From: Mobula hypostoma
Taxonomy: Eukaryota
NCBI RefSeq assembly: GCF_963921235.1
Contig: NC_086097.1
Span: 119,972,001-120,036,000 of the forward strand
Direction: 5' to 3'
Length of the DNA: 64,000 nucleotides
Positions 5,006 through 59,421 of this stretch are shown in pieces; position 1 is the first letter of the stretch; each line of letters starts with the position of its first letter. The notes beneath the pieces are model-generated. The model saw only the letters and a program-made list of their open reading frames with translations. It had not been told where the DNA came from and did no database searches. A program made the translations under genes and the position numbers.

Positions 5006-5185
5006 AGATTCCTTCTTCTGCCTTTTATCTTTTCCATGTATCCCTTCACAGTTTTTTATTTCATCTCCCTCCTCCACCCACCTACCTCCCCCTTCACTTG
5101 ACCTCACCTATCACTTGTTCTTCCCTTTTCCTTCCCATTCTGGCTTCCTCCCCCTTCCTCAGCAGTTGTTATGAAGGGTCTCAGC

Positions 5186-8880: not shown

Positions 8881-9754
8881 CTTACCTTTGAAGATGAGGA
8901 GAGCGATGTGATCTTGGATATAGGGCTCTGTGTTAAGCTACCCCTCATTCTCCACCTGTTCTTGGTATTTGTAACTGATCAGAGACAATCTCATGGTAAT
9001 TGGAGGATGAAATTCATGCATGGATTAGATCTGGATCCAGGCTAGAGATGTAGATGCAGAGTGGAAAATATTGCCATCAGTTCCATTATTAGTGGAATTC
9101 AGCAAACTGAGCAATGAATGCCCTAAGTAAGTGGATAGAGAGCAGGTGTTGAAGCAAATCCAATGTCTACAGGAGCGAGTCCACTGGAGGATGAAGGCTG
9201 AAGACAGCCTGTCCTGGAGTTAAAGGACTATGTGCATGGGTGGGAGGGAGAAATAGGGCTTGTTTTTCCTGTTATTGCTTGTGTGTTCTACTGAACCACT
9301 CTTCCAGCAAAGGATCAGTGCAGAATGAGGAAAAACAAGGAAATAAATTAATTGCAGTTACTGAGTACAATTAGTGCTAAGAGAAATTAACATATTAATT
9401 TTTAATGTGTTAAACATCTCAGTTAATGCCAAAACTAATTTTTCAAAGACAAATCTGATTTCCCAATCCTCAGGTTCCCCTGGGGTTCTGCATAAATACT
9501 CCCTTGGCTGTGCCAGAAGCTTCCCACGAGTCCTAAGATCAAACGTTTATTGCTTTCAGAGTACACCCAAAACAATCCTTACTGATTTGAGTTAACATAA
9601 TGCATTTCACTGTGTGTTTTGGTGTTTCCATGTACTTGTGACATATAAAGCTAACCTTTAAATCTGTATAATCTCATCTCGAGAGATACTCAACTGTATA
9701 GGCCATAAACTGCTTGCACTACAGAGTAGAATTCCTGGCCCTACAAATAAAGTC

Positions 9755-20125: not shown

Positions 20126-20394
20126 TATCTCTGCCACACCCTGTGTGGAAAAAACTTGCTTCTCAGGTCCCATTTAAAAGTTTCCTCTCTCAACTTAAAC
20201 CAATGTCCTCTAACTCTTAGACTCTTTACCAAAAAGACTGAGCATCCATCTTATTGAAGCTGGGCATGATTTTATAAATCTCTGCAAGGCTACCCCTTAG
20301 TTCCAGCAACATCCTTGTATTTTTTTCTTCTACATCATCCTGAGTTTAATCACATTCTTCCTTTGTAGGGGGACCAGAACTGCACACACTATTC

Positions 20395-20685
20395 CAGAGC
20401 AACACGTACAAAATGCTGGAGGGACTCAGCGGGTCGGACAACATCCGTGGAGAGGAATAAACAGTCAATGTTTTTGGCTCAGACCTATCATCAAGAATGC
20501 AAGGGAAGGGGGAAGAAGCCAGAATATGAAGGTGAGGGGAAGGGAAGGAGTACAAGCTGGCAGGTGATATGTGAAACCAGATGAGGGTGAAGGTGCTGGT
20601 GGGGGAGGGTGATGAATTGAGAAGCTAGGAATCGATCGATGCAAAAGGTAAAGGGCTGAACAAGAAGGAATCTTTTAGGAGTCGG
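20395..20685 (-). mobile_element. Old PLE 3' terminal fragment
   Basis: caaaatgctggagggactcagc...cagtcaatgtttttggctcagacctatcatcaag terminus and a purine-rich UTR like the other copies. Confidence 0.7.
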
Positions 20686-21440: not shown

Positions 21441-24002
21441 CAGGGGTCAGCAACCTTTTTGCCTCTGCGGGCCAGGTTACGTATTAATGAGCAGACGGTA
21501 GACCAGAAAAATGCCATTAAAAACTTGAAATATGGGAATTATCCATTTAAATACACCTAGTTATGTTTTGCCTCAAATTAATGAATAATGCATGCTGGAA
21601 AATCATTTGTGCTTAACCAAGGATGCCAATTAGTAATCAAAGAACTCAGTTTAGTTGCAATTTATTTCAATCAAGGCATCTTTTGAACCTATTAAAAGGA
21701 CGCAAATAATCTTTACACATAAAACGTAGGAACATGATGCATTGAATAGTGATAAATTAAGTATAATGAAAAAGAAAATTTTAATGCAAACAGTTGATAA
21801 ATCAATGTGAAACTTGATACTGTTTGTTGCTTGAAAGCTTCTCAATATTGGGTGTCAGACTTGTTGATGCCGAGAGCAAGACAATATCCAGATAGGCATT
21901 AGTCAATCTTGTTCTCAAATGGTTCTTGGTCTGCTTCATTTTTGAAAATAATGGCTCACACAAATAAGTGCTGCCAAACAATGATGCATGGTCTTTTTTG
22001 CATGGTCCACTAAGTTAGGATACTTCCCACTTGGATGAATATATTTTCAATAGAAGTCAAGCACTGACACATCTTCAGAATGAAATTTCAATCTCAATAT
22101 GTTGTCACACTGCATCTCAATCAATTCGATTTGAAAAAATTCTGATGCAGTCTCCACTTCCACAACAAATGAACTCATTTGTATGCAAGCGAAAAATAGC
22201 AGAATGAGATGGAAACACGAGGAAATCTGCAGATGCTGGAATTTCAAGCAACACACATAAAAATTGCTGGTGAACGCAGCAGGCCAGGCAGCATCTATAG
22301 GAAGAGGTACAGTCGATGTTTCCAGCCGAGACCCTTCGTCAGGACTAACTGAAAGAAGAGATAGTAAGAGATTTGAAAGTGGGAGGGGGATGGGGAGATC
22401 CAAAATGATAGGAGAAGACGGGGGGGGGGGTGGATGGAGCTAAGAGCTGGAAAGCTGATTGGCAAAAGGGATCTGAGAGGATCATGGGATGGACGGGAGG
22501 CCAAGGGAGAAAGAAAGGGGCAGTGGGGGAAGCCCAGAGGATGGGCAAGGAGTATAGCATGAAGAACAAAGGGAGGTATATAGAAGGTCCTGCTTTCTCT
22601 GGCAGACAGAGCGTAGGTTTTCAGCAAAACGGTCTCCCAGCCTGCGTCAGGTCTCGCAAATATATAGAAGGCTTCTATATATTGGCGAGACCTGACGCAG
22701 GCTGGGAGACCATTTTGCAGAAAACCTACGCTCTGCCCACCAGAGAAAGCAGGATCTCCCAGTGGCCACACATTTTAATTCCATGTCCCATTCCCATCCT
22801 GATATGTCTATCCACGGCCTACTCTACTGTCAAGATGAAGCCATACTCAAGTTGGAGGAACAACACCTTATATTCCATCTGGGTAGCCTCCAGCCTGATG
22901 GCATGAACATTGACTTCTCTAACTTCCGTTAATGCCCCACCTCCCCTTCCTACCCCATCTGTTATTTATTTATCTATTATTATTATTATTATGTTTATTT
23001 TTTTCTCTCTCCTTTTTCTCCCTCTGTCCTTCTCACTATACTCCTTGCCCATCCTCTGGGCTTCCTCCCTGCCCCTTTCTTTCTCCCTAGGACTCCCGTC
23101 TGTCCCATGATCCTCTCATATCCCTTTTGAAAATCAACTTTCCAGCTCTTAGCTCCATCCCTTTCCCCTCCTGTCTTTTCCTATCATTTCGGATCTCCCC
23201 CTCCCCTTCCCACTTTCAAATCTCTTACTATCTCTTCTTTCAGTTAGTCCTGACGAAGGGTTTCAGCCCAAAATGTTGACTGTACCTCTTCCTATAGATG
23301 CTGCCTGGTCTACTGTGTTCACCAGCAATTTTTAAAATGAGATGAAAACTCTTTTCTCAATTCTTGGACCATATTCACAAAAATGTCTGAATCTTGTGCT
23401 TTACTTTTTTGAAAAGTGGGAAAATGTGCACAATCTCCTTTTTGAAGCTGGTACAATTTTGGCTTTCTTTCCACTATGGCGGGTCATTTTCTAGGCAAAT
23501 GAGACAAACTGGTTTCCCACCTTGCTCGATGAAGAAGTAATCTAGTGTCCAAGTGTCTTGGAAATTTCGGCACTCAGTGTCAATCTTCCTGCGTTTTGCA
23601 TTCATTGCCATTGGAATTTTTTTCTTCGATTTTATTTAGAAACGCGAGTTATTCAACAGCTATCATAGCACATTTAAATATCTGGATATTCAGCATGGAT
23701 TTCTTGTTAAAACACAGTGATGCTGTTTCTGTTTACATATTTGAATGATCCCATCTGAAAATCTACGCGTGCACGGAGAGTATCTAATACATATTAATAA
23801 GGTAGTCTGCCTTCCCGTCATTCATATATACCAGTGTTTGGTTTTGAAAAAAACTGAACCTGGGGTTAGTGTAACAAGACGCCATGCATGTCCATCTGTG
23901 TGGTCGCGTGAAACACTCAGAATAAGGAAAAATCATTCGCGGGCTGGATAACCATAGTATCCCAATATTTTCTCGCGGGCCAGATTTGGTTGCCTACCCC
24001 TG
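21441..24002 (-). mobile_element. hAT (Charlie/Buster-type) DNA transposon, internally deleted
   Basis: TIRs caggggtcagcaacc / ggttgcctacccctg and a perfect 8-bp TSD ggctatag (21433-21440, 24003-24010). Transposase C-terminus on the minus strand at about 21805-22200: FQIELIEMQCD...ASLFGSTYLCEPLFSKMKQTKNHLRTRLT. Confidence 0.93.
22213..23334. mobile_element. PLE insertion with inverted (tail-out) termini and an internal fold-back, nested in the hAT element
   Basis: About 22255-22560 is the reverse complement of about 23035-23334. GIY-YIG C-terminal half at 22672-22932. Flanked by aatgagatg(g/a)aaac (22203-22216, 23336-23349). Hammerhead motifs at 22311-22346 (-) and about 23246-23281 (+, degenerate). 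Confidence 0.9.
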
Positions 24003-24891: not shown

Positions 24892-25666
24892 GATTCACGG
24901 TTTAGAAAGTAATAAGTAATCTCTAGTTGATCTAAAATTGTGCAAAATTGAAGATTTGAAATAAGAACAGAAAATGTTAAAGAATGCTCAGCAGGTCGAG
25001 CAGCATCAGTGGAGAAAGAACTTCCGTTACATTTTCAGATTGATCTTTCATCAGAAATGGATATATCCAGCATTTTCTCTTTTTAACATCTAGCTGACCT
25101 CCAGAATCCCATGATGCATAGCTAAGTGAGTCTCATCTTTGCTTATGCTTTTTGCTGATGGGAAACGTTTTGGCGAGCCAGAAAGTAAGACACCTTCAGG
25201 TACTTTTTGACATGTTCAAGTAGTAGCAAAGGAGGCCCAAACAAATGTTCTTAATTTAGGGTAGGAACTCATGTTAGTATTGGCATTCCAAACATTAAGC
25301 TGGCAATGAATATTGCTCTGTAAAAATTCTTGTACTCAGAGCACCCCTTAGAAATCAAACAATAAATCAACCAAATATATTAGAGCTGAACCAACTTTGG
25401 AATACCAAATAGTGTATAAAACTTATTGTAATTAGCTGTAGAGGATTAGGTGTGCGGTTGTTTTGCAAAATAATGTCCTTTCTAAGCATTATTTGTTAGT
25501 AAGGTCTAACTTTATGAGACTTTGAATCACTTTACCAATGCCCGATTTGTACCTTTAGGTAGCTATGTCTTCAAAGAATAGTGCTCAGAGCAACAGAAGC
25601 AAATGTTTGTGTTCATTTATACTGTATGTATGTTAATGAGAAACCTAACATTTAATGCTCCTTTCT

Positions 25667-25830
25667 AAAAGTTGCGGCTGAACGCTCTTCTTTCAGTTAG
25701 TCCTGATGAACGGTCTCGGCCAAAACATCGACTGTACCGCTTCCTAGGGATGCAGCCTGGCCTGCTGCGTTCACCAGCAACTTTTAGGTGTGTTGCTTGA
25801 AATTCCAGCATCTGCAGATTTCCTCGTGTT
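25667..25830 (+). mobile_element. Short PLE 3'-terminal insertion with a degenerate hammerhead (25699-25733)
   Basis: 11-bp TSD tgctcctttct (25656-25666, 25831-25841); same terminal sequence as the other PLE copies. Confidence 0.85.
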
Positions 25831-26391
25831 TGCTCCTTTCTCGTTGCCTTTGTGAAGGTGGAGCTGAGCCAGCTTCAGATGAAGATTTTTCCCTGGTGCA
25901 GTGGATAATGAGTTTCAAGATTTAGACTCAGTGCTCTTGAATGACAATACATTTACAACACAGCTTGGGATGTGACTTGGAAAAAATTGGCAAGTGATAG
26001 TTCCTGATGTGCCTGCTGCCCGTTTCTTCAGGGATGCTCTTGAAGTAGCTTTGTCAATTTACTTTTGTGCACATTGCAACTATGCAAACAGGAGCTGGCA
26101 TAGTAGTGTAAGAGTTAGTGCAATCGTTTTACAGTACCAGTGATTACCAATTGAGGTTTCATTCCTTCCACTGAGTGTGAATCCTGAAACTCATTATCCA
26201 ACTGCACTAGGGGAATACCTTCATCTAAAGGGTTTGAGGATTCTCTCCATGGCCATGTGGGTTTCCTCTGGGTGCTGTGCTTTCCTCCCATATTCCAAGG
26301 AGATACGATTAGGCTGAGTGACTTCTGGGCATGCTATGTTGGCAGCAGAATTGTGATGACACTTGCAGGCTGATGCCAACATAATCCTCAC

Positions 26392-26523
26392 AGACACGAG
26401 AAAATCTGGAGATGCTGGAAATTCGAGCAACACACACAAAATGCTGGTAGAACACAGCAGGCCAGGCAGCATCTACAGGAAGAGGTACAGTCGACGTTTC
26501 GGGCCGAGACCCTTCGTCAGGAC
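26392..26523 (-). mobile_element. Short PLE terminal insertion inside a SINE
   Basis: TSD taatcctcac (26382-26391, 26524-26533); consists only of the hammerhead plus the terminal ~95 nt. Confidence 0.85.
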
Positions 26524-26524
26524 T
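26489..26524 (-). ncRNA. Minimal hammerhead ribozyme motif in a PLE terminus (best-preserved copy)
   Basis: The minus strand reads AGUC-CUGACGA-A-GGGU-CUCG-GCCC-GAAAC-GUC-GACU: stem I AGUC/GACU, core CUGANGA and GAAA, a 4-bp stem II, a GUC triplet, and palindromic ACGU in place of a stem III loop. Confidence 0.8.
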
Positions 26525-27669
26525 AATCCTCACGGATTTTGTTTGACAAAACGGTGCATTTCACTATATGTTTGATGTTTCAATATGCATGTGCCAAATA
26601 AAGCTAATCTTTCTTCCTAAATCTTTTCATGATGTGCAAACATTGAAGGTTGTTTACGTTTAAGGTATATAGGGTGTCAATCAAGGTGGCTGATATGCCC
26701 TAAATGATATTGAGCTCCTTAGAATACCAATAGCTCATAATGCAGATTTAGGTCAAAGATGGCCCTCAATCTCTTCTTTGCTTCTGCCTTTTAATGATGG
26801 AAAACATTAGGAGAGACAGAAGTTAAGGCATCTGCTGACATGCTCTTATCAGCAGAGTCTAATTAGCCTTCCAGTTTTTGGTGACCACTAGGATGTCAAC
26901 AGTATTCTGCTCACAATGATGGCCATACTGCCTTTGGACTGATCTGAAAGTAACAAAACAAAAATCACTGATGCTTAAGAGGTCGAGAGAACTGGCAGAA
27001 AAGAGAAGTTGAAGCAGGTATTGATCAGCAATTATCGTGCTGAATGGCAGGGCAGGCTTGAAGAGCCTGATTGCCTATTCCTGCTCCTATGTGCTAGTAC
27101 AAATTTGAAAATTGCCAGAACAAAGCCAGCAACATAAAGCAAAGCAAGCAGCAGGCAGTATGGTTTCAATGATGAAAAGCAGCCCCACAGGTATTGGATG
27201 GGTTTAATATTACATTTAAAGCAGCAAAATGTACGAACAAACATAATGTGATAAAAGAACATTTGGGTTAAGGGCTATCGTGTCTGCTTTACATATTCTA
27301 TATTATTACATTGCTCAAAAACCGAATTACATTTCTGAATCAGAACTTGTAAAAATTCTACACTATTATCTTTCATTAACCCATGCATTCCAAGAGTATT
27401 TATATTCATTTTTTTGTAATTTTCACCAGCCATATTCCTGCATATACATTTTCCCCATAATCTAAAAGAGTTAATCTTCATTATAACCATAATGTTTTTT
27501 CTCCTATTTTCTCTATTGTTATTCCTTTATTTTCTTACAAAATACTTAGGAAAATAAATTTCTCTTTATCTGTCATAGCTGAGCACAAATACATATTTCA
27601 CTTAGAAGCTGTTTACGGCTTCAGTTATTTAGTTTCACTGAAGTCAAGACTCAGCCAAACATGACAAAC

Positions 27670-28275: not shown

Positions 28276-29526
28276 ATTTTGAAGTTTTCAACCTAAATGC
28301 CAAGCAACAAAAGCAGCACAGACACAATCTTCGATACTGGTCCATGACTGGTGCTTCCTCAGTCATGGATACAGCTTCTAAAGAAGTTCCTGTCCTGATC
28401 TGGATGTCTGATGACCACCAGACAATGCTCCACTAACAATAATCCTCCATTACCACATAGTTTTTGAACTGATATACATCTGCCCTTGTCACACTCATGG
28501 TAGGGCGCATTCTGGTCCACATGAACTTGAAGGTTAACCAAGGAACTGTTAACGTCTGAATTTGGAGCAACGAGCAAGATGTTTCGGCAGCATCTGTGGA
28601 TGGAAATGGACATTTGACGTTACTGGTTGAGACCCTTCACCCGGACTGAAAGAATCTCAGCCTGGTATGGAATCAACAATGCCCAGGAACAGAGAGTGAT
28701 CTATACAGCCCAGTCCATCACAGGCAAAGTCCATCCCACAACTGAGCGCACTTACAAGGAGAAAGTAGAATCTGTCATCAAGAACCCCCACCATCCAGGT
28801 CATGCTCTCTTCTCATTAACACCACTGGGCAGGAGGTACAGGAGCCTTAGGTCCCACGTCATCAGGTGGTTACCCCTCAATCATCAGGCTCTGGAACCAG
28901 TATGGATAACATCACTCACCTCAGCTTTGTACTGATTCCATAACCTATGGACCCACTTTCAAGGACTTCATGGCTCGTTCTCAGTATTACTTTTCATTTG
29001 CACAGTTTGCTTTTCTTTGCACATTGGTTGTCTAGCAGTCTTTGTTTATGTATAGTTTCTATTGTATTTCTTTATTTTCCTGTAAATGCCTGCAAGAAAA
29101 TGAATCTATGTACTTCGTAATACATTTACTTCACCTTTGAAAGAAAGAGGGGAGACAATCAGTGTAAAAGAATAAAGGAAGTGAAGGGGTGGAGCAAGAG
29201 TTGGCAGGTGATGGATGGATCCAGGTGAACAGGTGTGACAGCCAGATTGAGAAAAGTAAGAGTGATAAGTAGTGGCAGAATTAACGAGATGGTAGGTGGA
29301 AGTGACAAAAAGCTGCAATGGGTGGAGTATGTAAGAGATGGTGGAGCATGGAACCAAATAAATGACGTGGCATAGCATGATGGGAACAGTTGGAGAGGGT
29401 CCAGTGGGAGGCGTTTGTGGGTGAGGCACTGATGGACTGGTTAAAGGGATCAGAGCCAGGTTTAATATCACTGGCATATTTGATGAAAATTGTGAATTAC
29501 TGTAAGTATATATATAGATAGGTAAC

Positions 29527-29560: not shown

Positions 29561-30696
29561 TAAAATAATTTAATTCAATAAGTAGTGAAAAAAATGTTGT
29601 TAGGTGGTGCTCACAGGTTCAATGTCCATTCAGAGATCAGATGGCAGAGGGAAAGAAGCCGTTCCTGAATCACTGAGTGTGGGTCTTCAGGCTCTTGTAC
29701 CTCCTCCCTGATGGTAGCAATCTTCTCCCTGATGGAGGGGGTAAAACATGGTAATGGGGGCTCGAGTGAGTGTACAAGGAATGGGGTAGATTAGGACAGG
29801 AGAGGATAAGGTACAGGAGTGAAGCAATTTGCCTAAAACTTGAGAATTCAATGTTCATACCATTGCATTGTAGACTAACTAGGCAGAATATAAGGTGAAG
29901 TGTCCCTTCATGAATGGTAGTCTAGTACAGTGAAATAGTGTACCACAGTTTCTTGAGCTACTTCCCATTGCGGCTTTCCCCTACTTCATAGCCATTGAGT
30001 CTATGTTTCTATACAGAAACTGATAAGTGCCTAGAATGTATTAGCAGGGTAGGAAATGGAAGCTAGTACAATAACAAAGTTTATGAGATCTTAGGAACAT
30101 GAAGTATGAAGGGATATAGATCATGTGCAGGCAGATAGGATTAGTTTTGTTTAGCCTTATGGTTTGCGCAAATGTCATTGGCTGAAAGATCAGTTCCTCT
30201 CTGATCTTCAAGAACACCTCCTCAGCCTTTAATATGCTTGGTAATTCAACACCAGGCTCACACATTTTCTCGGTCTAAATGTTGGAAGTCTCTGCACAAC
30301 AACACTGTGTGAGTGTTATCACCCGGTGGACTGAAGTGATTCAGGAGGATAGCTAATCACCATTTAGGCAAGGACAACAACTCTGTCATACAACAGAATA
30401 AGGACATGTATTGAGATGAGAACAAATACTAACCAATATTCCAAGCATGATTACAATACTCAAGCAAAGATAAGCTTTGATCATTAAATTCCTTTCATGC
30501 TGTCTGCTTACTTATGTATATATATTCATTTAGCCCTTCTGGTATCTCTCTTCTAGACTTTTCAATTCTATTTTTTACTACTATTAAGCCTAGCTTCATT
30601 ATATTCGTCCTTCCTAAATTAGTGTATATTCCATTCATTTGTGACTTTCGAAACATTTTCTTTTTTCTCATAGTAATATCTTAGTTTTGTATTCTA

Positions 30697-31248
30697 TATT
30701 CAGTGGATGCTTTATTAATTACTTCCAGTACCTAATAAAGTGGCCACTGAGTGTATATTCATGACCTAATGCTGCAAAAGCCATCCACCTGAAGGTCTGA
30801 TGTGTTATTCATTCAGAGATGCTCTTCTGCACACTACTACTGTGACCCATAGTTATTCGAGTTACTGTTGCCTTCCTGTCAGCTTGAACCTGTCTAGTCA
30901 TTTTCCTCTGAGCTCTCTCATTAACAAGGTATTTGTGCCCTCAGAACTGCTGCTAATTGGGTTTCTTTTTTGGTTTTTGCATTATTCTCTGTAAGCTCTT
31001 GAAACTGTTGTGTGTAAGAATCCCAGGAGATCAGAAATTTCTGAGATACTGTAACCAACTTGTCATTCCTCAGTCAAGGTAACTTAACATTTCATCCCCA
31101 TCGTGATGTTTCGGTTGAGCAACAAGTGAACCTCTTGACCACATCTGCATTCTCTTACACTTTGAGTTGCTGCCACATGATTGCCTGATTATATATTTGC
31201 ATTAATAAGAAGAAGTGCAGGTGTACCTGATAAAGTGGCCACTGAGCA
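30697..31248 (-). mobile_element. Non-autonomous Tc1-like element (same family)
   Basis: Same TIR hairpin at the left end, same internal sequence, and right TIR gtacctgataaagtggccactgag. Confidence 0.88.
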
Positions 31249-34935: not shown

Positions 34936-35987
34936 ACTTAATTTCCTTGATCATTGTATGAAATGAGCTGAACCCTATGTATACTAACATCAGCTCCTGG
35001 GGTCAATCCACCTCTGATCCACTGAGGCATGACTTCCCCTCAATGAACAAGCCATGCTTCCCCAGTACCTTTGTGGATGAGAAGCCCTACTTTAATCTAT
35101 ATCCATAAACAGCTGATCTTGCAGCATTCCCTAGCACTGAGCTTTCATCAAACCCCTCCACCCCTGGCCAGAGAAAACAGGGAACAACTTTCTTCACCTT
35201 TCTTGTGTGGGATCCAAAACAAAAAATATATCAAGTACTGGAAAGACTCTGCTGATCAGGCAACATCTATAGCAGAGGAACAGAACCACCCGAACTGACT
35301 CATTGGGTTTTTAAAGCATTTTCTTTTCTGTGGTAGATTTTCATCATCAACCTAATTTTGTCCCAAGTACAGGATGTTTATAAAGGAATTACATGCTAAT
35401 TGCAAACATAAACCAAAAACTCTTAGCATCTGTGCTCTGTTCAAACTAAATTGTATTAACTGAATATTAACATAAAAAGTCAAATTTTGACAAACAATTT
35501 CTTCAACACTGTTTATAAGGGCTTTTAATTGACTATTAATGTTTTTAAAGGTTTTGGAATGTAACTTTAGATATTGATTCTCTATTTTGCGATACCATTG
35601 TATATGTTTTAACTCTATGCATGACCAAATGCTATGGATGGTTAATGAAGAAAAGATGCTAAATGAATAAATCATGCTTCTTTCTCTGTCTGTCTCTCAC
35701 CTGCTTGTTCTCTGTAAGAGAGGAGATAGAAAAAATACATAATCTTTTAACTTAACTTCATCTTTTTGCATGACATCTTGTAGTTTTTGATACTTCAGAA
35801 TCAGGTTTATTTTCACTGACATATGTCATGAAATTTGTCGTTTAGTGACAGCAGTACAGACTAATACATTACAATAACTATAAGTTATAATAAATAAGTA
35901 AGAAAGTAAATAAATAGAAAGGTAGTTTGATAGAGAGGCCTCCTTCGGTTGGGGTTGACCATAGTTGTCGCATCCTAGCTGTCTAGA

Positions 35988-38357: not shown

Positions 38358-41300
38358 ACCATAAGACATAGGAGAAGAATTAGGCTATTTGGCCCACAGA
38401 GCCTGATCTGCCATTCCATCATGGATGATTTATTATCTTTGTCAACCCTATTCACTTGCCTTCTCTCTGTAAACTTTGACTCCCTGCTACATCAAGAACC
38501 CATCAACCTCCACTTTAAATATAGTCAATTATTTAAACGCCACAGCTGTTTGTGGCAATGAATTCCATTACCCTGTACCCTATGGCTACAGAAAAGCCTC
38601 AGCTCTGTTCTAAATGGACATCCCTCTATTCTGAGGCTGTGACCTAGACTGCCCCTATAGGAAACATCCTCTCCACATCCACTCTATCAAGGCCTTTCAA
38701 AATTTGACAGATTACAATGACCCCCTCCCCGCCATTCTTCTGACCAGCTGCAAGTTGACTGTACTCTTTCCTTGCCTGGCCTGCTGAGTTCCTCCAGCAT
38801 TTTTTGTGTGTTTCTTTTAACCTCCGTCAAGTACAAGCCCAGAAACTGCAAACACTCCTCATCTCTCCTGGATCCTCTCCAATGCCAGCAATTCTTTCTT
38901 AGATAAAGGGCTCAAAACTGCTCACAATACTCCAAATGCAATCTGACCAATGTCTTATGAAGCCCTAGCATTACATCCTTGCTCTTATATTCTAGTCCTC
39001 TTGAAATGAATGTAACATTGTATTTGCCTTCCTTACCACTGACTCACTCTGCAAGTTAATATTTAGGGAGTCCTGCACAAAAACTCCAAGTCCCTTTGCA
39101 CTTCTGATTTTTGAATTTTCTCCTTGTTTAGAAAATAGTCTACTCCTTTACTCCATCTACCAAAACACATGACCATTTAAATCCCTGCACTGTATTGCAT
39201 CTGCCACTTCTCTGCCCAGTCTCCGAAATTGTCTGAGTACTTTTGCAGACTCCCTGCTTCCTCAAAACTATCTGCTCCTCCACCTACAATATCTTCATAT
39301 TGTCTAAAAACTTGGCTATAAAGCCATCAATTCTGTCATCCAAATCATTGACATATAACGTGAAAACATAGAAACATAGAAAATAGGTGCAGGAGTAGGC
39401 CATTTGGCCCTTCGAGCCTGCACCGCCATTCAGTATGATCATGGCATGATCATCCAACTCACAACCCTACCAGCCTTCCCCCCATACCCCCTGATCCCTT
39501 TAGCCACAAGGGCCATATCTAACTCCCTCTTAAATATAGCCAATGAACTGGCCTCAACTGTTTCCTGTGGCAGAGAATTCCACAGATTCACCACTCTCTG
39601 TGTGAAGAAGTTCTTCCTAATCTTGGTCCTAAAAGGCTTCCCCTTTATCCTCAAACTGTGACCCCTTGTTCTGGACTTCCCCAACATTGGGAACAATCTT
39701 CCTGCATCTAGCCTGTCCAATCCCTTTAGGATTTTATACATTTCAATAAGATCCCCCCACAATCTTCTAAATTCCAACGAATATAAGCCTAGTCGATCCA
39801 GTCTTTCATCATATGAAAGTCCTGCCATCCCAGGAATCAATCTGGTGAACTTTCTCTGTACTCCCTCTATGGCAAGGATGTCTTTCCTCAGATTAGGGGA
39901 CCAAAACTGCACACAATACTCCAGGTGTGGTCACACCAAGGCTTTGTACAACTGCAGTAGTACCTCCCTGCTCCTGTACTCGAATCCTCTTGCTATGAAT
40001 GCTAGCATACCATTTGCCTTTTTCACCACCTGCTGTACCTACATGCCCACTTTCAATGACTGGTGTATAATGACACCCAGGTCTCGTTGCACCTCCCCTT
40101 TTCCTAATTGGCCACCATTCAGATAATAATCTGTTTTCCTGTTTTTGCCACCAAAGTGGATAACCTCACATTTATCCACATTAAATTGTATCTGCCATGA
40201 ATTTGCCCACTCACCTAACCTATCCAAGTCATGCTGCACCCTCTTAGCATCTTCTTCACAGCTAACACTGCCACCCAGCTTCGTGTCATCCGCAAACTTG
40301 GAGATGCTGCATTTAATTCCCTCGTCTAAGTCATTAATATATATTGTAAACAACTGGGGTCCCAGCACTGAGCCTCGTGGTACCCACCAGTCACTGCCTG
40401 CCATTCTGAAAAGGTCCCGTTTATTCCCACTCTTTGTTTCCTGTCTGCCAACCAATTCTCTATCCACGTCAATACCTTACCCCCAATACCGTGTGCTTTA
40501 AGTTTGCATACTAATCTCCTGTGTGGGACCTTGTCAAAAGCCTTTTGAAAATCCAAATATACCACATCCACTGGTTCTCCCCTATCCACTCTACTAGTTA
40601 CATGCTCAAAAAATTCTATGAGATTCATCAGACATGATTTTCCTTTCACAAATCCATGCTGACTTTGTCCGATGATTTCATCGCTTTCCAAATGTGCTGT
40701 TATCACATCTTTGATAACTGACTCTAGCATTTTCCCCATCACCGATATTAGGCTAACCAGTCTATAATTCCCCAGTTTCTCTCTCCCTCCTTTTTTTAAA
40801 AAGTGGGGTTACATTAGCCACCCTCCAATCCTCAGGAACTAGTCCAGAATCTAAAGAGTTTTGAAAAATTATCACTAATGCATCCACTATTTCTTGGGCT
40901 ACTTCCTTAAGCACTCTGGGATGCGGACCATCTGGCCCTGGGGAATTATCTGCCTTTAATCCCTTCAATTTACCTAACACCACTTCCCTACCAACATGTA
41001 TTTCCCTCAGTTCCTCCATCTCACTGGACCCACTGTCCCCTACTATTTCTGGAAGATTATTTATGTCCTCCTTAGTGAAGACAGAACCAAAGTAGTTATT
41101 CAGTTGATCTGCCATGTCCTTGCTCCCCATAATCAATTCACCTGTTTCAGTCTGTAGGGGACCTACATTCGTCTTAACCGATCTTTTTCTTTCTATAAAA
41201 GCTTTTACTGTCAGTTTTTATGTTCCCTGCCAGTTTTCTCTCTTAATCTTTTTTCCCCTTCCTAATTAAGCCCCTTGTCCTCCTCTGCTGGACTCTGAAT

Positions 41301-43124: not shown

Positions 43125-43711
43125 GAAGTGTTTCCCAGTGGCCAATCATTTTAATTCCAGTCTCTTTAATTCCATTCTGACATGTCAGTCCAGAGCCTCT
43201 TCTACTGTCACAATGAGGCCACTCTCAGGATGGAGAAACAATTCTTCATATTCCATCTGTGATAACCTGTTTCTATCAAAGCTTCATAATGGAGCATACT
43301 TACCTTCTGCAAGTTATCTGTTATCATCTGGAAGGAGGGGAGGTGGGTTAATGGTTCTGTTGAGATACTCAGAGTGTCTAGTGAAGACCACTATTTTATC
43401 TCATTGGTAGATTGACGTAAATTTCCTTCTCCTAAATCTTCTGTCCTTCATCATATAATCCCAGCACACTTCCGATGACTACTGGTTCAGTAACCATCAC
43501 ATACTCCCCAGGCTGTTTCTACCTCAAATCATAAACACAAGAGATTATGCAGATGCTGGAAATCTAGAGCGAAATGCACAAAATGCTGTAAGAACTTAGC
43601 AGATCAGACAGCATCAATAGAGAGGAGTAACAGTTGACATTTCTGCCAGGGTGCTCCATTAGGACCTGATGAAGGGTCTTGGCCTGAAACATCGACTGTT
43701 TACTCCTCTCT
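43125..43711. mobile_element. PLE fragments: GIY-YIG remnant (43125-43270) and fold-back terminus (43533-43711)
   Basis: PVANHFNS motif; inverted repeat centred on 43664, made of two back-to-back hammerhead-like motifs. Confidence 0.7.
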
Positions 43712-46049: not shown

Positions 46050-47084
46050 TAACTACGAATGTGCAAGGGCAGCCCACAAGTGTCTCCACACATTCCCGTG
46101 GCATCATGGCATGCCCACAATGCTTGGCAGAACAACGCAGTGAAAGAAGCCCCTTTCCTGCCACCCTACCTCCCTACCACCCGACCACACAAACGGATTG
46201 CCCTCCAGCTCCAGAACGGGCCTCCAGTTTCCGGGTTTTGCCCGATGGGCTTCAACTTGCAGACATCTGATCAACCTTTAGTTTCCATTCTCCAGTACCC
46301 ATCCCTGGACTAGCTGATGACAGGACCCCAGATTCCTGGTTCGAACTCTGAGCAGGTTGACCGACTGGCACTCGTGCCTCCTGCTCACATGGATATCTGA
46401 TCACAGAAACCTGGCACGGCGTAACATCTACCGATGTCCTGTGTCACCTGACTACATTGCTGGCCTTTGAGCACAGAGCAGTGGCCCTGACTCTAGATGT
46501 CCTTTATTATTTCAAATCAGCTTCTGTTTGAAAATAATTTCACAAGTTATGGTTAGAGTCCATTTGGCAGAGAACAAGAGTGGTGTGATAAAGTTTATGG
46601 CAGTAGAAAATGGGAGCAAATGCCCAAATAACACACATCACTTTACCTTGATGCATGCTGCATGTAAAACTCATGGGGGTTCTCTGGCAGGAATTGAATA
46701 CATTCTTCTGTGAATATCATCTCATTTTGTGAGTGGCTAACTCTGTTTCAGGCTTGCCAGCTCCACTTAAAGACAGCTTGTGACATTTGCTGAAATCATG
46801 TACATGGACAAGATAAATTAAGCCATCTTCAAATATTGAACCAGCAGCTTCAACACATCACATATTTACCAACACCTACCAACAAGGTTAATCAGGACAA
46901 AAACCTAAAATTCAAATTTTCTACTATACCGTCACAAGTTTCCTATTTCTATAATCTTCATACTCATAACTTGCAGTATGAACAAATGATCTGCTGGTCC
47001 AGAATGGCATCAGGACCAGCCAACGACTACATGACACTCTCAAACACGTTTTGCTCTCCCGCGTGGAAAGCACACAAACACACC

Positions 47085-49150
47085 AAATTTTGGCAGAACA
47101 CAAGACATGTATCAAGAAGTCATGGAATAAACAGTCAACATTTGGGACCAAGTCTCTTCAGAAGGACTGGAAAGGAAGGGGACAGAAACCAGATTAAGAG
47201 AATGGTGGTGGGGTGGGGAGGGGGTGTAGTGGAAGAGTACATGCTGGCAGGTGATAGGTGAATTGGGCGAGGGGGAATGTGGGCAGGTGGGTGAAGGGGT
47301 GAATGAAAAAGAATGATATGAGAAGCTGGGATTTGATAGATGGAAGAGGTAAAGGGATGAAGAAGAAGGTATCCGTTAGGAGAGAGGACAATGGACCTTG
47401 GAATAAAGGGAAAGAGGTGGGAAGGTGATGGACATGACATAAGAGTAGAGGAAGGGAAAAGAAGGGGTGTGAGACCCATCAGAATGAGGGAAAACTATTG
47501 AGGGATGGGGCAGAAACAGAGGGAAGTGACACCGGAATGTGAAACAATTGATGTTCATGCAATCTGTTAGAGGCTACCTGGACAGAATATGCTATGTTGT
47601 TCCTCCAGTCTGCATTTGGCCTCATTATTGCAGTAGAAGAGGTGAGGAAAGGACAAATCAATGTGGGAATAGGAAGTCAAATTGAAATAAGTGGTCATCA
47701 GAAGATTGTGGCTGCTGTGGCAGACAAAGTGAAGGTGCTTGACGAAGCATTACCCTAATTTGTGTTAGCTTTCACTGATATAGAGAAGGCCACACTGGGA
47801 ACAACAGATACAGAGCAGCAGGTGAAATGCTGCCTCACCTGGAGGGACTGTTTATTGCCTTAAATGTGGGGAGAGAGGAAGTGTAGGAGCAGGTGTAGCT
47901 CTCAGTTGCAGAGATAGGTGCCAGGAGTGAGATCTGTGGGGAGGGATGAGTGGACAAGGAGTTACAGAGAGGGTGATCACTCAAAAAACAGAGAATGGTG
48001 GGGGAGGAAGAAAAGATGGACTTGATGGTGAGATCCCACTGGAGATGATAGAAATTGCAGAGAAAAATGTGTTGAATGCAGAGTTTCATGAGGTGGTAGG
48101 GGAGGACAAGGGGAACCCTAATTCTGTTATGTCAGGGTGGAGGAATGGGGGTAAGGGCAAATGTGCAGGGAATGGAGGAGACATCAGAGAGGGCAGGATC
48201 GGTTGTGATGGAGAGGAAATCCTACTCTCTGAGTAAAAGAGAATATTTTGGGTATCTTGGAATGGAAAGCCTCATTCTGAAAGCAGATGCAGCAAAGGCG
48301 GAGGAATTGAGAGACAGAGAGAAGGGAATGGAATTTTTACAAGTGACAGGATGGGAAGATGAATAGTCAAGTTAAATGTGACAGTCAGTTATTTTTTTAA
48401 ATCTGTCAGTGCAGTGGAGAAAGAGTTGGGGAGTGTTACCGGTGTAGACTTAGAACTTGGACTGTGCCACGTAGCTGATAAAAAGGCATAACTGGGGGCC
48501 ATGTGAGTGGAGAAAGTGGGAGTAGCCACAAGAGAAATTGAGGGTAAGTTTTGTGACATGGAAGGGAGTGGTGGTGGAGGTGCAAACAACAGGAATTCTG
48601 CAGATGCTGGAAATTCAAGCAATGCACATAAAAGTTGCTGGTGAACGCAGCAGGCCAGGCAGCATGGAGGTGAACTGGTTCGGCCTGTTGTCAAGAAAGA
48701 AGTGCAAAGACCAGTCCCCCTCCTCCCTCTTTGTTTTCTCTTATTCTGGTGGCTTTACCACCCCTGCTCTTTCCCTCACACACCCTCATGCCCATCACTT
48801 CCCTCTGGTTTCCCATCTCCTTCTTATTCCATTGTCCAAAAAACTCTCTGATTAGGTTCTTTCTTCTTCAGTTCTTTACCTATTCCACTTATTACCTCCC
48901 AGCTTCTCACAACATTCCATCTCATTTAACACTTTCCCCATCCATTCACCACCCCCTCACCAGTACTCACCTATCACCTGCCAGTATGTACTCCATCCCT
49001 CTCCCTGACTTATTCTGTCTTCTGTCCTCTTCCTATCCCGTCCTGATGAAGAGTCTCTGCCCAAAATGTTGACTATTCATTTTCCTCCATAGATGCTACC
49101 TGACCTGCTGAGTTCCTCGAGCAATTTGTGTCTGGTGCTCAAGATTTCCA
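47085..49150. mobile_element. Old PLE: minus-strand body (about 47085-48580) plus inverted 3' end (about 48730-49150), with a small younger PLE terminus inserted at 48583-48664
   Basis: Terminal sequences point outward at both ends; GIY-YIG remnants at 47545-47870; tggaggtg duplication at 48575-48582 and 48665-48672. Confidence 0.75.
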
Positions 49151-51700
49151 TATCCTCTTGTCATCCCTCCTTAGTGGGGCAGCTTGCCACAGAGTTGATG
49201 ACAACATTAGACACATGGTCTTTTTTTTTTGTGGTAACATATCAGTGTATATGGCAAACCACAAGTGAGAGACCATTTTAGTTGACACCATTTTCAAACT
49301 TACATTTTATGCCTCATCCTAAAATCTGTCTAATTAAAGGTTGCGGTTGGTATTAGTCTTAACCTCCAATCCCCACCTTCCCTTCAGCTTAATCTGATTC
49401 TTGTATGCCACTCTTTTTAAGAAATCAAGAAGTCTAACCTAACTAGCAGTAGTTTAGCAACAAGCAATAAAGACCCTATTAAACTGCATTTATTCATGCT
49501 GTTTGTCTTCATTGTCTCATATAGACAAGGAGAGGATATTATCTTAGTGTCCTGGAACATGTCTGGGTGAGGTGTATACCTCAATGAATCTTGGAGACAT
49601 GGTAAATGTATGAGGTGGCACCAATAATTGTTTGGTAGAACCTCTGATTGGTGGAGTCTGTTGCTATGTGCGTGATGTGGTTGCATTGACCAATCTTAAA
49701 GAGATAAGAGAGAGAGAGATTAGGTTTATTTGTCAAAACATCAATACACACTGAATTGTGTTGCTTGTGTCAAAGACCAACACAGTCCGAGATGTGCTGG
49801 AAGCAGCCTACAAGCGTTGCCACACTTCCAGTATACTATAGCATGTCCACAACTCACTAGTTCTAACTGCTAGAGTGGGAGAAAATCAGAGCACCCTGAG
49901 GAAACCCTTGTAGTCATGGGGAGAACTCACAAACTCCTTACAGACAGCAGCAGGTGTTGAACTCTGAACTTAGTGCTGACTGATAATTGCCATGTGCCCT
50001 AAGATGCAGTGTTGAGAGATGGGGATGCCAGAATTGAACCCCGGCCCAATCCATGCAAAACATTCGCCCTCGCAATGACCTACATCTGTGACACTCGTAA
50101 TGCATTTGTTGGGAAATTATGGTTTTATGATATCCTTGCTGATCTTTAAGACTCATCTGAGATGTTACAATTTTTTCTTGTGCAGCCGTAGTCTTGGAGC
50201 TTGTCCATTGGTGATACCATCCCTCTCTCCGTCAAACTTCTTCAATCCATTGTTTCTCTCTTTCCTTCCTCTCTGAACTCATTGATCGATGTGAGCAAAG
50301 TTGTAATGTGAACAATGTGAACAAAGTTGTGAATCAAGTTCCTGTTGTCATCCAGGCTCTAAAATGGCCTTCAAGTAGCCTTGGTATTTAGGAATAACCA
50401 CTACTATGATTGCCAGCAATGAGCAGCACACCTCTTGGTTTAGGCTTGACCTCATTCAACATTGGCCACATTAATTCCATGTCGGCTTCTCAAAAATTGA
50501 ATCCTCTGGATGTTGGCTAAAGCATTCTTTAGTGTTTTCTCAACAGAGGGATCATGATTTTGAGGCGATACATCCAAATGATAATCCAGTGCCACTCAAT
50601 TACATCCACCTCCTACCCCTGAGAGATATACATAGTGCTTTGAATGGTAGGAGACAGAATTAAACTGATTTGAGAGGCTGTCTAGATAAATAAATGAGTT
50701 GTAAGTTAAAACTTCTATTCATTTACCTGTAGAGAAAAGGCGATAATAATAAGCCTATTTTGTTTTATGAATGTTTCAATTATTAGGCGTTGAAAACAAT
50801 CAAAAGAAGTTCACAGTAAATTTATTATCAAAGGACAGGTATGTCAGCATACACAACCCTGAGACTCATTTTCATACAGGCATACTCAATAAAATCATAA
50901 TAGAATAATAACCATAATAAAATCAATGAAAGACCACACCAACATGGGTGTTCAATCAGTGTGCAAAAGACAACAGATTGTGCAAATACAAAAAGAAAGA
51001 ACTAATAATAAAAATTAGACAATAAGTATTGAGAACATGAGATGAAGAGTCCTTGAAAGTGAGTCCTTAGGTTGTGGGAATATTTCAATGATGCAGCAAG
51101 TGAAGATGAGTGAAGTTATCCCCTTTGGTTCAAGAGCCTGATGGCTGAGGGGCATTAACTGCTCCTGAACAAGGTGGCTTGAGTTCTGAGGCTCCTCTAC
51201 CTTCTTCCTGCGAGAAGAGAGCATGACTTGGATGGTGGGGATACCTGATGTTGGATGCTGCTTTCTTGTGACAAAGCTTCATGTAGATGTGCTCAAAAGT
51301 GGAAATGGTTTTACCCATGATGAACTGGGCTATATGCACTACTATCTTATAGGATTTTCCATTCAAGGGCATTGGTGTTTCCATACCTGGCTATGATGCA
51401 GCCAGTGTATATTCTCCCCAACACACATCTATAGAAGTTACATTGTACTACTTGTAACCCTCTCACTGGGGCTCGTGTACAGACTTGGCTTGTTAGCCGG
51501 CTCTGCTAACAGTCATATGACTCAGTGGTGAGAAGGCCACCTTTCATGAACATACAGCTAGGGTCGGTATAATTTGTGGTTCAACCAAACAGGAACGCCA
51601 TGATGTTCTGACTAAAGGAACATGACTGAGTGAATGTTGTGTAACGGTAGCCCAGAAATGACAAATTGCACACCAGCATAAAATTACAATGAATGTATAT

Positions 51701-56903: not shown

Positions 56904-58277
56904 TATCGTCTAAGGTTTTTCCAGTTAGACATTATAATTGGCTCCTGTCCACTCTGACAGGGACATAACCTATGCAACTATCAAATAAATGGTTCCATTT
57001 ATTACCAGAGAATGTATACAGTATACAGTCTAGGCAATGTTCTCCACAGAGATCCACAAAAAACAGAAGAACCCCTAAAGAATACATGACAGAAAAATAA
57101 TAAAACCCCAATCCCCCCTCCCCTCCCTCGGGCAAGCAACAGCAAGCGTCAACACATCAATCTCCCCATATACCCGGCCACTTCAGAAAGAAGCATCAGC
57201 GCCCACCACCAAATCAAGACTCAAGAATCGGCAGCAAACTCTCCCACTATTAAGAGAGAGAGAGAGAGAGAATGCAACTGCTCGACTACAGGGATCTCCA
57301 TCTGTACATCCGCTGCAGTGAGACCCTAGTGCTCCACCTCCCGCGATATCTCAGTCTGCAACAACTGCCTGGAATCGGTCATCCACATGGCCGCACCCCG
57401 GAGACATCAACTTCCAGGCCACGCCAATTGCAGATCAGGACCTCAATAGAACCACCCTGCAAAGGAAAAAAAAAGAGAAATTAAAGAGAGGAATTTAAGC
57501 TGTGTCCACAGATGAGCTTGAAGCAGCAGCCACTTGGCACCATTATCTTAAGTCTGCAACCTTCCAACCTACAACAACAATTATACTAGCTGATATAATG
57601 ACTTACTTCATCATTGTGTAGGGGCCAAATCATAACCCTTGGATGCTATGTTTTATTTCTATTCAAGGCAACTTTACTTTTGAAGTTCTTTGCAATAAGT
57701 GGATTTGTAAAAGAAATTGTTAACTGCAGTTAAAGGGATTATTTTTAACTATGAAAGTATGTGTTCACGTAGCCTTCAATATTAATACAAAAGCAGACTC
57801 AAACAGCAACACATACAAAGTGCTGGAAAAACTCAGCAAGCCAGGCAGCATCTATGGAAAAGAATAAACAGTCGACGTATCGGTCCTAGACCCTTCACCA
57901 GGATTTCATCAGCAAGAATAAATTGGGAGGATGGGAGAGGAAGGAATACAATCTGGCAGGTGATAGGTGAAGCCAAGTGAGGAGGAAGTTGGGTGGGTGA
58001 GGGATGAAGTAAGAAAGGGAGATGACAGGTGATAGATGGAGGTAAAGGCTGAAGAAGAAGGAATCTACTCGAAGAGGATCATGGAACATGGAAGAAAGAG
58101 AAGGAGGGTGTCATCCAAGGGAGGTGATTCTCTAAATTACTTAGAGAAATTGCTGTTTATGATATCAGGTTGGAGGCTACCTTAATGCAATATGAGGTGT
58201 TGATCCTCCAACCTGCGTGTGGCAGTAGAGGAGGCCATGGACTGGTATGTCAGAATGCACAGTTGAATTGAAATGGG

Positions 58278-59421
58278 AGATGTCTTCCTTTTTTAAAGAA
58301 AGGGGCTTCCCTTCCTCCACTATCAACTCTGCTCTTAAATGCATCTCCCCCATTTCACGTACATCTGCTCTCACTCCATCCTCCCGCCACCCCACTAGGA
58401 ATAGGGTTCCCCTGGTCCTCACCTACCACCCCACCAGCCTCCGGGTCCAACATATTATTCTCCGTAACTTCCGCCACCTCCAACGGGATCCCACCACTAA
58501 GCACATCTTTCCCTCCTCCCCCTCTCTGCATTCCGCAGGGATTGCTCCCTACACAACTCCCTTGTCCATTCGTCCCCTCCATCCCTCCCCACTGATCTCC
58601 CTCCTGGCACTTATCCGTGTAAGCGGAACAAGTGCTACACATGCCCTTACACTTCCTCCCTTACCACCATTCAGGGCCCCAAACAGTCCTTCCAGGTGAG
58701 GCATCACTTCACCTGTGAGTCGACTGGGGTGATATACTGCGTCCGATGCTCCCGATGTGGCCTTTTATATATTGGCGAGACCCAACGCAGACTGGGAGAC
58801 CACTTTGCTGAACATCTACGCTCTGTCCGCCAGAGAAAGCAGGATCTCCCAGTGGCCACACATTTTAATTCCACATCCCATTCCCATTCTGACAAGTCTA
58901 TCCACGGCCTCCTCTACTGTAAAGATGAAGCCACACTCAGGTTGGAGGAACAACACCTTATATTCCGTCTGGGTAGCCTCCAACCTGATGGCATGAACAT
59001 TGACTTCTCTAACTTCCGCTAAGGCCCCACCTCCCCCTCGTACCCCATCTGTTACTCATTTTTATGCACACATTCTTTCTCTCACTCTCCTTTTTCTCCC
59101 TCTGTCCCTCTGAATATACCCCTTGCCCATCGTCTGGGTTCCCCCCCCCTCCGCACTTGTCTTTCTTCCCGGACCTCCTGTCCCATGATCCTCTCGTATC
59201 CCTTTTGCCAATCACATGTCCAGCTCTTGGCTCCACCCCTCCCCCTCCTGTCTTCTCCTATCATTTTGGATCTCCCCCTCCCCCTCCAACTTTCAAATCC
59301 CTTACTCACTCTTCCTTCAGTTAGTCCTGACGAAGGGTCTCGGCCTGAAACATCGACTGCACCTCTTCCTACAGATGCTGCCTGGCCTGCTGCGTTCACC
59401 AGCAACTTTGATGTGTGTTGC
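58278..59421 (+). mobile_element. Young 5'-truncated Penelope-like element (Neptune-type): RT thumb end, Cys-rich linker, GIY-YIG endonuclease and terminal repeat
   Basis: ORF 58696-59022 reads VIYCVRCSRCGLLYIGETQRRLGDHFAEH...EEQHLIFRLGSLQPDGMN. Upstream are PGTYPCKRNKCYTCPY and RVPLVLTYHP. Flanked by a ttgaaatggg duplication (58268-58277, 59422-59431). Confidence 0.92.
59323..59358 (+). ncRNA. Minimal hammerhead ribozyme motif in the 3' terminal repeat of the young PLE
   Basis: AGUC-CUGACGA-AGGGUCUCGGCCU-GAAAC-AUC-GACU, downstream of the GIY-YIG ORF stop. Confidence 0.7.

What the first reader, a model, noticed from the sequence alone, without database searches (positions are those of the whole stretch)
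26489..26524. Intact-looking minimal hammerhead ribozyme; about 10 related motifs across the window
Seen: AGUC CUGACGA A GGGU-CUCG-GCCC GAAAC GUC GACU on the minus strand. Variants occur at 22311-22346(-), ~23246-23281(+), 25699-25733(+), ~43665-43698(+), ~49041-49074(+), ~57870-57904(-), 59323-59358(+), ~47133-47168(-), ~28615-28647(-) and ~20463-20497(-). Established: PLE terminal repeats carry minimal type-I hammerheads with almost no stem III, and the palindromic ACGU allows cleavage as dimers. Inference: this genome is densely seeded with potential self-cleaving RNA motifs on both strands, which could cut read-through or intronic transcripts.
Basis: partly seen in the sequence, partly recalled or inferred. 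Interest (0 to 1): 0.7.

Follow-up and report, generated by a model that had tools for sequence, protein, structure and literature searches.

The report
Intact Penelope hammerhead among decayed copies
This is a real, intact tiny hammerhead-ribozyme motif in a 129-base stub of a Penelope-type jumping gene in a likely ray genome, a kind described in 2014; its ten look-alikes nearby are mutated and a lone copy is predicted to fold into an inactive shape, so it likely does not cut host RNAs.

Summary
The motif is real. 26489-26524(-) has every core base of a minimal type-I hammerhead, 4-bp stems I and II, and the ACGU palindrome in place of stem III. It is the only strict match in the window, against 0 in 200 shuffles.

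It sits in a 129-bp 5'-truncated stub with a 13-bp target-site duplication. The stub is the terminal repeat of a Neptune-type Penelope-like element; a sister copy lies 300 nt behind a GIY-YIG frame 90% identical to a Mobula protein. The class was described in 2014 (PMC4209133).

All 10 other listed motifs have lost a core base or the palindrome, mostly by CpG decay (38/99 vs 25/260 changed). The intact copy is solitary and predicted to fold as an inactive rod. Published single minimal hammerheads did not cleave. The motifs lie on both strands partly because of head-to-head insertions. No host exon was found.

This scan has noted the same family many times, in this and other genomes. Verdict: a new member of a known kind, low interest.

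The parts
26489..26524 (-). Intact minimal type-I hammerhead motif; predicted cut after GUC, between 26493 and 26492
26395..26523 (-). 129-bp 5'-truncated Penelope-like stub (hammerhead plus about 95 nt of 3' end); the 5' junction shares 3 nt (26524-26526) with the target-site duplication
   Evidence: 90% identity to the 22213-22348 copy
26382..26394 (+). Target-site duplication, left copy (13 bp, 1 mismatch to the right copy)
26524..26536 (+). Target-site duplication, right copy
25667..25830 (+). Separate stub with decayed motif 25699-25733 and a short inverted piece at its 5' end; 11-bp exact duplication 25656-25666 / 25831-25841
22217..23335 (.). One head-to-head inverted insertion holding motifs 22311-22346(-) and 23246-23281(+) and an endonuclease fragment; the longer 3' tail is on the left arm only; 14-bp duplication (1 mismatch) 22203 / 23336
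58277..59421 (+). Longest young copy: RT thumb/linker fragment, GIY-YIG frame, pyrimidine-rich repeat, motif 59323-59358; inserted into an older opposite-strand copy with duplication TTGAAATGGG at 58268 / 59422
58501..59022 (+). Penelope GIY-YIG endonuclease frame with CX4CX2C linker and CCHH residues
   Evidence: PF01541 E 0.0039, below the curated cut-off; 90% identity to a Mobula hypostoma protein; motifs
57790..58257 (-). Older copy, 3' part, with decayed motif 57870-57904; continues at 59421-60113(-)
43523..43711 (.). Fold-back insertion turning at the hammerhead's 5' edge (43665): decayed motifs 43632-43665(-) and 43665-43698(+); 11-bp duplication (1 mismatch) 43512 / 43712
47045..49162 (.). 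Old inverted pair with RT-endonuclease fragments and decayed motifs 47133-47168(-) and 49041-49074(+); nested young tail-only piece 48577-48665(-); no duplication found
20380..20681 (-). Old copy with decayed motif 20463-20497
28542..28650 (-). Old short copy with decayed motif 28615-28647

Best explanation
The motif is the intact minimal hammerhead of a Penelope-like retrotransposon's terminal repeat, left here in a short truncated insertion, where it is likely inert because a lone copy is predicted to fold into a rod that ties up its catalytic bases. Shown: the sequence, the stub with its target-site duplication, the link to a GIY-YIG frame, and CpG-type decay of the other copies. Inferred from PMC4209133: a complete element carries two same-strand terminal repeats, so its transcript can pair the two ACGU palindromes into an intermolecular stem III and cut, slowly, after GUC to process the element's RNA. 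Inferred: selection keeps the motif in the active master lineages, not in inserted copies, whose five CpGs deaminate. This copy has so far escaped those changes.
For: Strict descriptor: 1 hit in the window, 0 of 200 shuffles. Matches the published consensus CUGANGAH G..C GAAA-palindrome-UH and nearly the same layout as the Acropora Neptune motif. Same-family motif lies 300 nt downstream of a GIY-YIG frame on the same strand. Duplications of 10-14 bp at 5 of 7 boundary pairs examined; a sixth gave a weaker 10-bp match and the seventh none; 4 of 3000 random window pairs share a 10-nt exact word. Inverted arms with a one-sided tail, as described for these elements (PMC8557442). Young vs old subfamily identity is 0.83 at non-CpG motif positions against 0.31 upstream, 0.36 just downstream and 0.61 further downstream. 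CpG columns changed 38 of 99 (31 of the deamination type) vs 25 of 260, p 1.5e-9; window CpG o/e 0.25. Monomer rod -11.9 kcal/mol, with G5-G8 paired to C15.2-C17 at probability 0.98-1.0. Active dimer -14.7 vs two rods -23.8 vs inactive duplex -32.1. In 97 distinct related motifs from metagenome contigs, stem I (not in the search pattern) covaries: pair 2.1-1.1 is U-A 39, A-U 27, C-G 19; at least 3 bp in 57 of 97 vs shuffle mean 13 (max 24) and slid controls 18, 5, 7. 6 of the 7 loci (of 121) with a Penelope-protein hit have the motif 72-311 nt downstream on the same strand.
Against: No cleavage assay was run. Nearest-neighbour energies ignore Mg2+, tertiary core contacts and chaperones. The test for core protection in young copies is weak and leans the other way: 0 of 45 core changes vs 19 of 310 elsewhere, p 0.15. 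In public runs of related organisms the depth-weighted share of CpG variants was only 4-9% at the four CpG positions listed, and no motif position reached 10%. Contigs favour majority letters, but intact copies may be commoner genome-wide than 1 in 11. The Pfam GIY-YIG score is below the curated cut-off. The 97 related motifs fall into few families, so their shuffle control overstates significance. No RT tree was built.
Confidence: 0.9

Rival explanations
1. Dispersed copies cut host read-through or intronic RNA, by pairing in trans with abundant family transcripts or with distant copies in the same pre-mRNA.
For: The family is very abundant: 3255-6565 contigs per run lay on the stub in 4 runs, RNA status a guess. 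6 of 61 same-strand ordered pairs pass a pairing test, including self-pairing and ACAU x AUGU pairs, because the two deamination products are complementary. A preprint finds Xenopus retrozyme copies depleted in introns.
Against: 1 of 11 copies is intact. The passing hetero-pairs are 5-36 kb apart; four would cut at GUU with a G.U pair at 10.1-11.1, and two of those also mismatch at the second stem I pair. The inactive folds are far more stable. The published monomer is inactive and dimers weak (PMC4209133); 8 of 9 Xenopus dimers did not cleave. No host exon was found.
Confidence: 0.05
2. The stub belongs to a short non-autonomous family (SINE- or retrozyme-like) that starts at the hammerhead's 5' edge and is copied from its own short RNA, not a random truncation of the full element.
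For: 4 of about 13 arms begin within -14 to +3 nt of stem I (26526, 25685 and both arms at 43665). A pyrimidine tract plus CAG lies 2 nt before stem I in young copies. Earlier unchecked notes report the same clustering genome-wide.
Against: No tandem units with the motif. No copy starts at the predicted cut site. The stubs differ at their 5' ends and are 85-93% alike to the long endonuclease-bearing copies, with no stub-specific sequence. Numbers are small and the 26526 junction has a 3-nt microhomology. A preferred stop point is also compatible with the best explanation.
Confidence: 0.15
3. The resemblance to a hammerhead is chance or only an inherited repeat sequence, and the RNA structure has no role even in the active element.
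For: No Rfam hammerhead hit. Folding z-score only -0.96. Naiad elements thrive without such motifs (PMC8557442).
Against: 0 of 200 shuffles; the motif is conserved between subfamilies while the flanks diverge; stems covary in related motifs; same position relative to the endonuclease as published.
Confidence: 0.03

Closest known systems
Minimal hammerheads (min-HHR) of metazoan Penelope-like elements, Cervera and De la Pena 2014 (PMC4209133; read main text parts 1-2 of 4 and supplement file 2 parts 1-2 of 3; file 1 could not be searched)
   Same: Type I; CUGANGA plus an extra base; G10.1-C11.1; palindromic 15.1-16.1 with no loop 3; U-rich 5' flank; placed in the terminal repeat after the endonuclease; mostly solo or opposite-strand copies; thousands per genome in coelacanth and Xenopus. 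The Acropora Neptune row has the same core, 4-bp stem II, 4-nt loop and ACGUC.
   Different: No shark or ray appears in Table S1 or Fig. S3 as read. Stem II is short (4 bp) compared with the 7-8 bp of Schistosoma and teleost motifs. The paper suggests RNA-level mutation for the copy variability; here CpG deamination accounts for most of it.
Endonuclease-positive Penelope-like elements, Neptune clade (PMC8557442; 12 passages read)
   Same: C-terminal GIY-YIG with CCHH residues, CX2-5CxxC linker, 5' truncation, adjacent inverted copy, one-sided tail.
   Different: No full-length or tandem copy in the window; clade not tested by an RT tree; clear 10-14 bp duplications.
Animal non-LTR retrozymes (bioRxiv 10.64898/2026.07.22.740005; abstract, Results part 1 of 2 and 9 passages read; supplements not seen)
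   Same: Type I hammerhead in sequence related to the Penelope terminal repeat; reported in one cartilaginous fish.
   Different: Retrozymes are defined by at least two consecutive tandem units each with a hammerhead; none occur here.

Membership tests
Metazoan PLE minimal hammerhead (min-HHR) | Core C3 U4 G5 A6 N7 G8 A9 / G12 A13 A14 A15.1 / U16.1 H17 | tested here: met
   26489-26524: no core change. Not met in 7 of the 10 other copies.
Metazoan PLE minimal hammerhead (min-HHR) | Extra base between 9 and 10.1, and G10.1-C11.1 closing stem II | tested here: met
   A at 26513; G26512-C26501; 4-bp stem II
Metazoan PLE minimal hammerhead (min-HHR) | Palindromic 15.1-16.1 with no stem III of its own | tested here: met
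   ACGU; kept in 2 of the 10 others, both with broken cores
Metazoan PLE minimal hammerhead (min-HHR) | Open stem I (type I) | tested here: met
   AGUC/GACU, extended by a U.G pair; covariation in related motifs
Metazoan PLE minimal hammerhead (min-HHR) | Location in the terminal repeat of a Penelope-like element | tested here: met
   Sister copies 59323 and 23246 follow GIY-YIG sequence on the same strand
Metazoan PLE minimal hammerhead (min-HHR) | Self-cleavage as a dimer, not as a monomer | not testable with these tools
   Only folding energies
Neptune-clade EN+ PLE | C-terminal GIY-YIG endonuclease with CCHH residues | tested here: met
   VIY..LYIG with internal CxxC and two downstream His; PF01541 E 0.0039, under the curated cut-off
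Neptune-clade EN+ PLE | CX2-5CxxC linker between RT and endonuclease (shared with Nematis) | tested here: met
   CKRNKCYTC at residues 40-48 of 58501-59022 (definition)
Neptune-clade EN+ PLE | RT groups with Neptune in a phylogeny | not tested
   No labelled reference set; the window holds only RT fragments
Neptune-clade EN+ PLE | Tandem pseudo-LTRs flanking a full ORF | tested here: inconclusive
   Only truncated and inverted copies in 64 kb; no genome held
Non-LTR retrozyme | At least two consecutive tandem units, each with a hammerhead | tested here: not met
   None of 14 tandem rows covers a motif (period up to 500); the nearest same-strand motifs are 2.1 and 4.2 kb away
Canonical / domesticated intronic hammerheads | Stable stem III and loop-loop tertiary contacts, active as a monomer | tested here: not met
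   No stem III; predicted monomer is a rod; no Rfam hammerhead hit
Canonical / domesticated intronic hammerheads | Orthologous conservation in a host intron | not testable with these tools
   No genome or orthologous loci held; no host exon found

The most novel reading that the evidence does not exclude
Abundant transcripts of this Penelope family act in trans as partner strands. Any host RNA that carries an intact sense-strand stub, like 26489-26524, is cut after GUC, and complementary CpG-decay products (ACAU x AUGU) keep part of the decayed pool able to pair. That would make a genome-wide, methylation-eroded RNA-cutting network in rays.
Probability: 0.04. Interest if true: 0.7.

Novelty: new member of a known kind. 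Interest (0 to 1): 0.14.

Why it matters
As it stands it extends a class known since 2014 to a likely ray family; none of my three searches listed a paper describing these motifs in rays, and a 2026 preprint reports related retrozymes in one cartilaginous fish. It supplies an undecayed natural copy for the open question of whether and how these minimal hammerheads cut. Two small points are testable: the core can pair with the cut-site strand (GACG/CGUC) and lock the monomer, and CpG deamination explains most copy-to-copy variation without needing RNA-level mutation. It would matter much more only if solo copies were shown to cut host RNA.

Tried and rejected
No whole genome is held, so there are no genome-wide counts or intron orientation.

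Rfam gave no hammerhead hit. This is not taken as evidence against the motif, since the models expect a stem III (my knowledge).

Host-gene search: 385 of 393 stop-to-stop frames of 55 aa or more were scanned against Pfam; the 8 over the CA microsatellite at 19.5-20.3 kb were left out. Only transposon-type domains were found. A crude exon scan gave one unsupported candidate at 35198-35266(-). A signal-peptide-like frame near 45830-45930(-) lies in a TGT..ACA bounded stretch that looks like a solo LTR and was set aside. Exons under 55 aa are not excluded.

Expression: no RNA holder listed; the best run held 0.08 of the words. The four runs are contigs of coded organisms and show that the family is present, not this locus, RNA ends or strand. 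In one search no variant rows were given for 26497-26524, close to the end of the stretch, so core and stems could not be compared.

Retrozyme reading rejected. No tRNA gene. No window-family DNA match among the 121 metagenome loci. A start of copies at the cut site was looked for and not seen. An earlier-findings search by sequence gave nothing.

Full report
Observation. They map onto a type I hammerhead: stem I AGUC/GACU, CUGACGA, one extra A, stem II GGGU/GCCC with a 4-nt loop, GAA, the palindrome ACGU at positions 15.1-16.1, and C17. The predicted cut lies between 26493 and 26492. A strict descriptor finds this site alone on both strands of the window and nothing in 200 of 200 block-wise dinucleotide shuffles; a relaxed one adds 59327-59354 and hits 2 of 200 shuffles. 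Rfam has no matching hammerhead model at E<=5 in the window or E<=10 in 26380-26560. The 10 other listed sites are homologues. I add a decayed twelfth at 43632-43665(-).

What it belongs to. The motif is the 5' end of a 129-bp insertion (26395-26523) flanked by a 13-bp duplication with one mismatch; 3 nt of the duplication also fit the element. The stub is about 90% identical to the 3' ends of longer copies. The longest (58277-59421, +) carries an RT-thumb fragment, a CX4CX2C linker and a GIY-YIG frame (58501-59022), then about 300 nt of pyrimidine-rich sequence, then the motif. Pfam's GIY-YIG match is weak (E 0.0039, below cut-off). The frame is 90% identical to a Mobula hypostoma protein, 76-80% to Hypanus sabinus proteins and 61% to a Stegostoma protein (15 hits among 549 candidates of 304-2000 aa). 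The host is therefore likely a ray, and the element a Penelope-like retrotransposon of Neptune type by the linker definition in PMC8557442 (passages); no tree was built.

Insertion anatomy. It fits the published description: 5' truncation, adjacent inverted copy, one-sided tail. 22217-23335 is a single head-to-head insertion with a 14-bp duplication, 43523-43711 is a fold-back with an 11-bp duplication, 47045-49162 is an older inverted pair with no duplication found, and the young 58277 copy split an older opposite-strand copy. Five of 7 boundary pairs examined gave 10-14 bp duplications, a sixth a weaker one; 4 of 3000 random pairs of 45-nt windows share a 10-nt exact word. The 11 listed motifs come from about 9 insertions, and the two-strand distribution is partly built into the inverted ones.

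State of the copies. Of 11 listed motifs only this one keeps core and palindrome; 7 have core changes and 3 have ACAU with a weakened or broken 10.1-11.1 pair. The motif holds five CpGs. In the 10 other copies CpG columns differ from the intact copy in 38 of 99 cells, 31 of them C>T or G>A, against 25 of 260 elsewhere (p 1.5e-9). The window's CpG o/e is 0.25. Non-CpG core positions are not detectably protected: old copies 6 of 36 vs 37 of 236 (p 0.81); young copies 0 of 45 vs 19 of 310 (p 0.15, weak and leaning towards protection); two further copies were in neither group. Between subfamilies the motif is the conserved block: 0.83 identity at non-CpG positions against 0.31 upstream, 0.36 and 0.61 downstream (3 young x 4 old copies). 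This fits selection in master lineages and decay after insertion.

Public runs. In four runs of coded organisms (RNA status a guess) 3255-6565 contigs per run lay on the stub, many diverging right at 26487 and 26523-26524, and no motif position differed in 10% or more of depth. The intact copy thus equals the family's majority form. Against my reading, the listed CpG variants were only 4-9% of depth. Contigs under-report variants, but intact copies may be commoner than this window suggests.

Is the structure real for the class? An exact-pattern scan of metagenome contigs returned 121 loci (an estimated 3200 in all). Among 97 distinct motifs, stem I, which the pattern did not specify, paired at 2.1-1.1 in 90 (U-A 39, A-U 27, C-G 19). 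It reached at least 3 bp in 57, against a partner-shuffle mean of 13 (max 24 in 2000) and slid controls of 18, 5 and 7. The inner stem II pairs also covary. Seven of 121 loci had a Penelope-protein hit, and in 6 the motif lay 72-311 nt downstream on the same strand. These motifs fall into few families, so the shuffle overstates significance.

How it likely works. In Cervera and De la Pena 2014 (PMC4209133) such motifs sit in both terminal repeats of metazoan elements and are also scattered singly or as opposite-strand pairs. A single Schistosoma motif showed no cleavage, and dimers and trimers showed low cleavage. The proposed role is processing of the element's own RNA. For the intact copy here, the predicted monomer is a rod of -11.9 kcal/mol in which G5-G8 pair with C15.2-C17 at probability 0.98-1.0. 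The active double hammerhead scores -14.7, two rods -23.8 and an inactive duplex -32.1; these figures omit Mg2+ and tertiary contacts. Of 61 same-strand ordered pairs, 6 pass a pairing test: self-pairing, the 57870 copy as substrate 31 kb away, and four ACAU x AUGU pairs 5-36 kb apart that would cut at GUU. No tandem unit carries the motif. In a 2026 preprint 1 of 9 Xenopus dimer elements cleaved. I found no host exon (385 of 393 frames scanned), so intronic context is unknown. The best reading is an inert relic (0.9); cutting of host RNA is unlikely (0.05).

A side pattern. Four of about 13 arms start within -14 to +3 nt of stem I and none at the cut site. Young copies have a pyrimidine tract and CAG two bases before stem I, recalling the intron end at helix I in Drosophila virilis (PMC4209133); splicing was not tested. 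I saw this clustering before reading earlier notes, several of which report it genome-wide and propose a short template RNA starting there (unchecked AI notes, not counted as support).

Verdict. Observation confirmed; interpretation partly supported. A new member of a known kind. Searches listed no paper on these motifs in rays, and no shark or ray is in the 2014 table and alignment as read; supplement file 1 of that paper and the preprint's supplements were not seen. Interest 0.14.

Noticed in passing
window 45233-45318 (+): Weak mir-23-like hairpin: 25 bits against a gathering score of 52, E 0.63 in the window and 0.0034 in a 351-nt stretch; both arms resemble the model but the seed region has a gap. 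No neighbouring miRNA hit. Chance hairpin or decayed copy.
   Followed up: partly
window 7372-7438, 30692-30758, 55027-55084: Near-perfect 60-70 nt palindromes at the end of a repeat with an HTH frame (HTH_23 at 55106-55567), probably Tc1-like transposon remnants (label recalled); they score as mir-9256 below gathering.
   Followed up: no
window about 45511-46047 (-): Stretch bounded by TGT..ACA with raised CpG, possibly a solo LTR; holds a hydrophobic, signal-peptide-like frame near 45830-45930.
   Followed up: partly
window 53148-53819 (-): Two consecutive frames separated by a stop; one matches Pfam PNMA (E 2.7e-21), likely a gag-like remnant of an LTR retrotransposon.
   Followed up: no
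window 39439-42921 (-): Long, fairly well kept LINE with GDSL esterase, AP endonuclease and RT frames, CR1/L2-like (label recalled).
   Followed up: no
window 25685-25830 (+) and 26395-26523 (-): Two independent young stubs face each other tail to tail 560 nt apart, each with its own duplication; a read-through RNA could pair them as a long hairpin.
   Followed up: partly
window 26540-26620 and 26330-26381: The stub sits inside another, older repeat: some contigs join across it, and 26525-26612 matches 9574-9659.
   Followed up: no
window motifs 22311, 25699, 43665, 59323, 20463 vs 23246, 49041, 47133: CpG decay of ACGU gives ACAU or AUGU, which are reverse complements and could re-form a 4-bp stem III between two decayed copies.
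   Followed up: partly
L011-L012 (contig OFEO01001287.1): A related Penelope-like element with two near-identical minimal hammerheads on opposite strands flanking an RT-endonuclease region.
   Followed up: no
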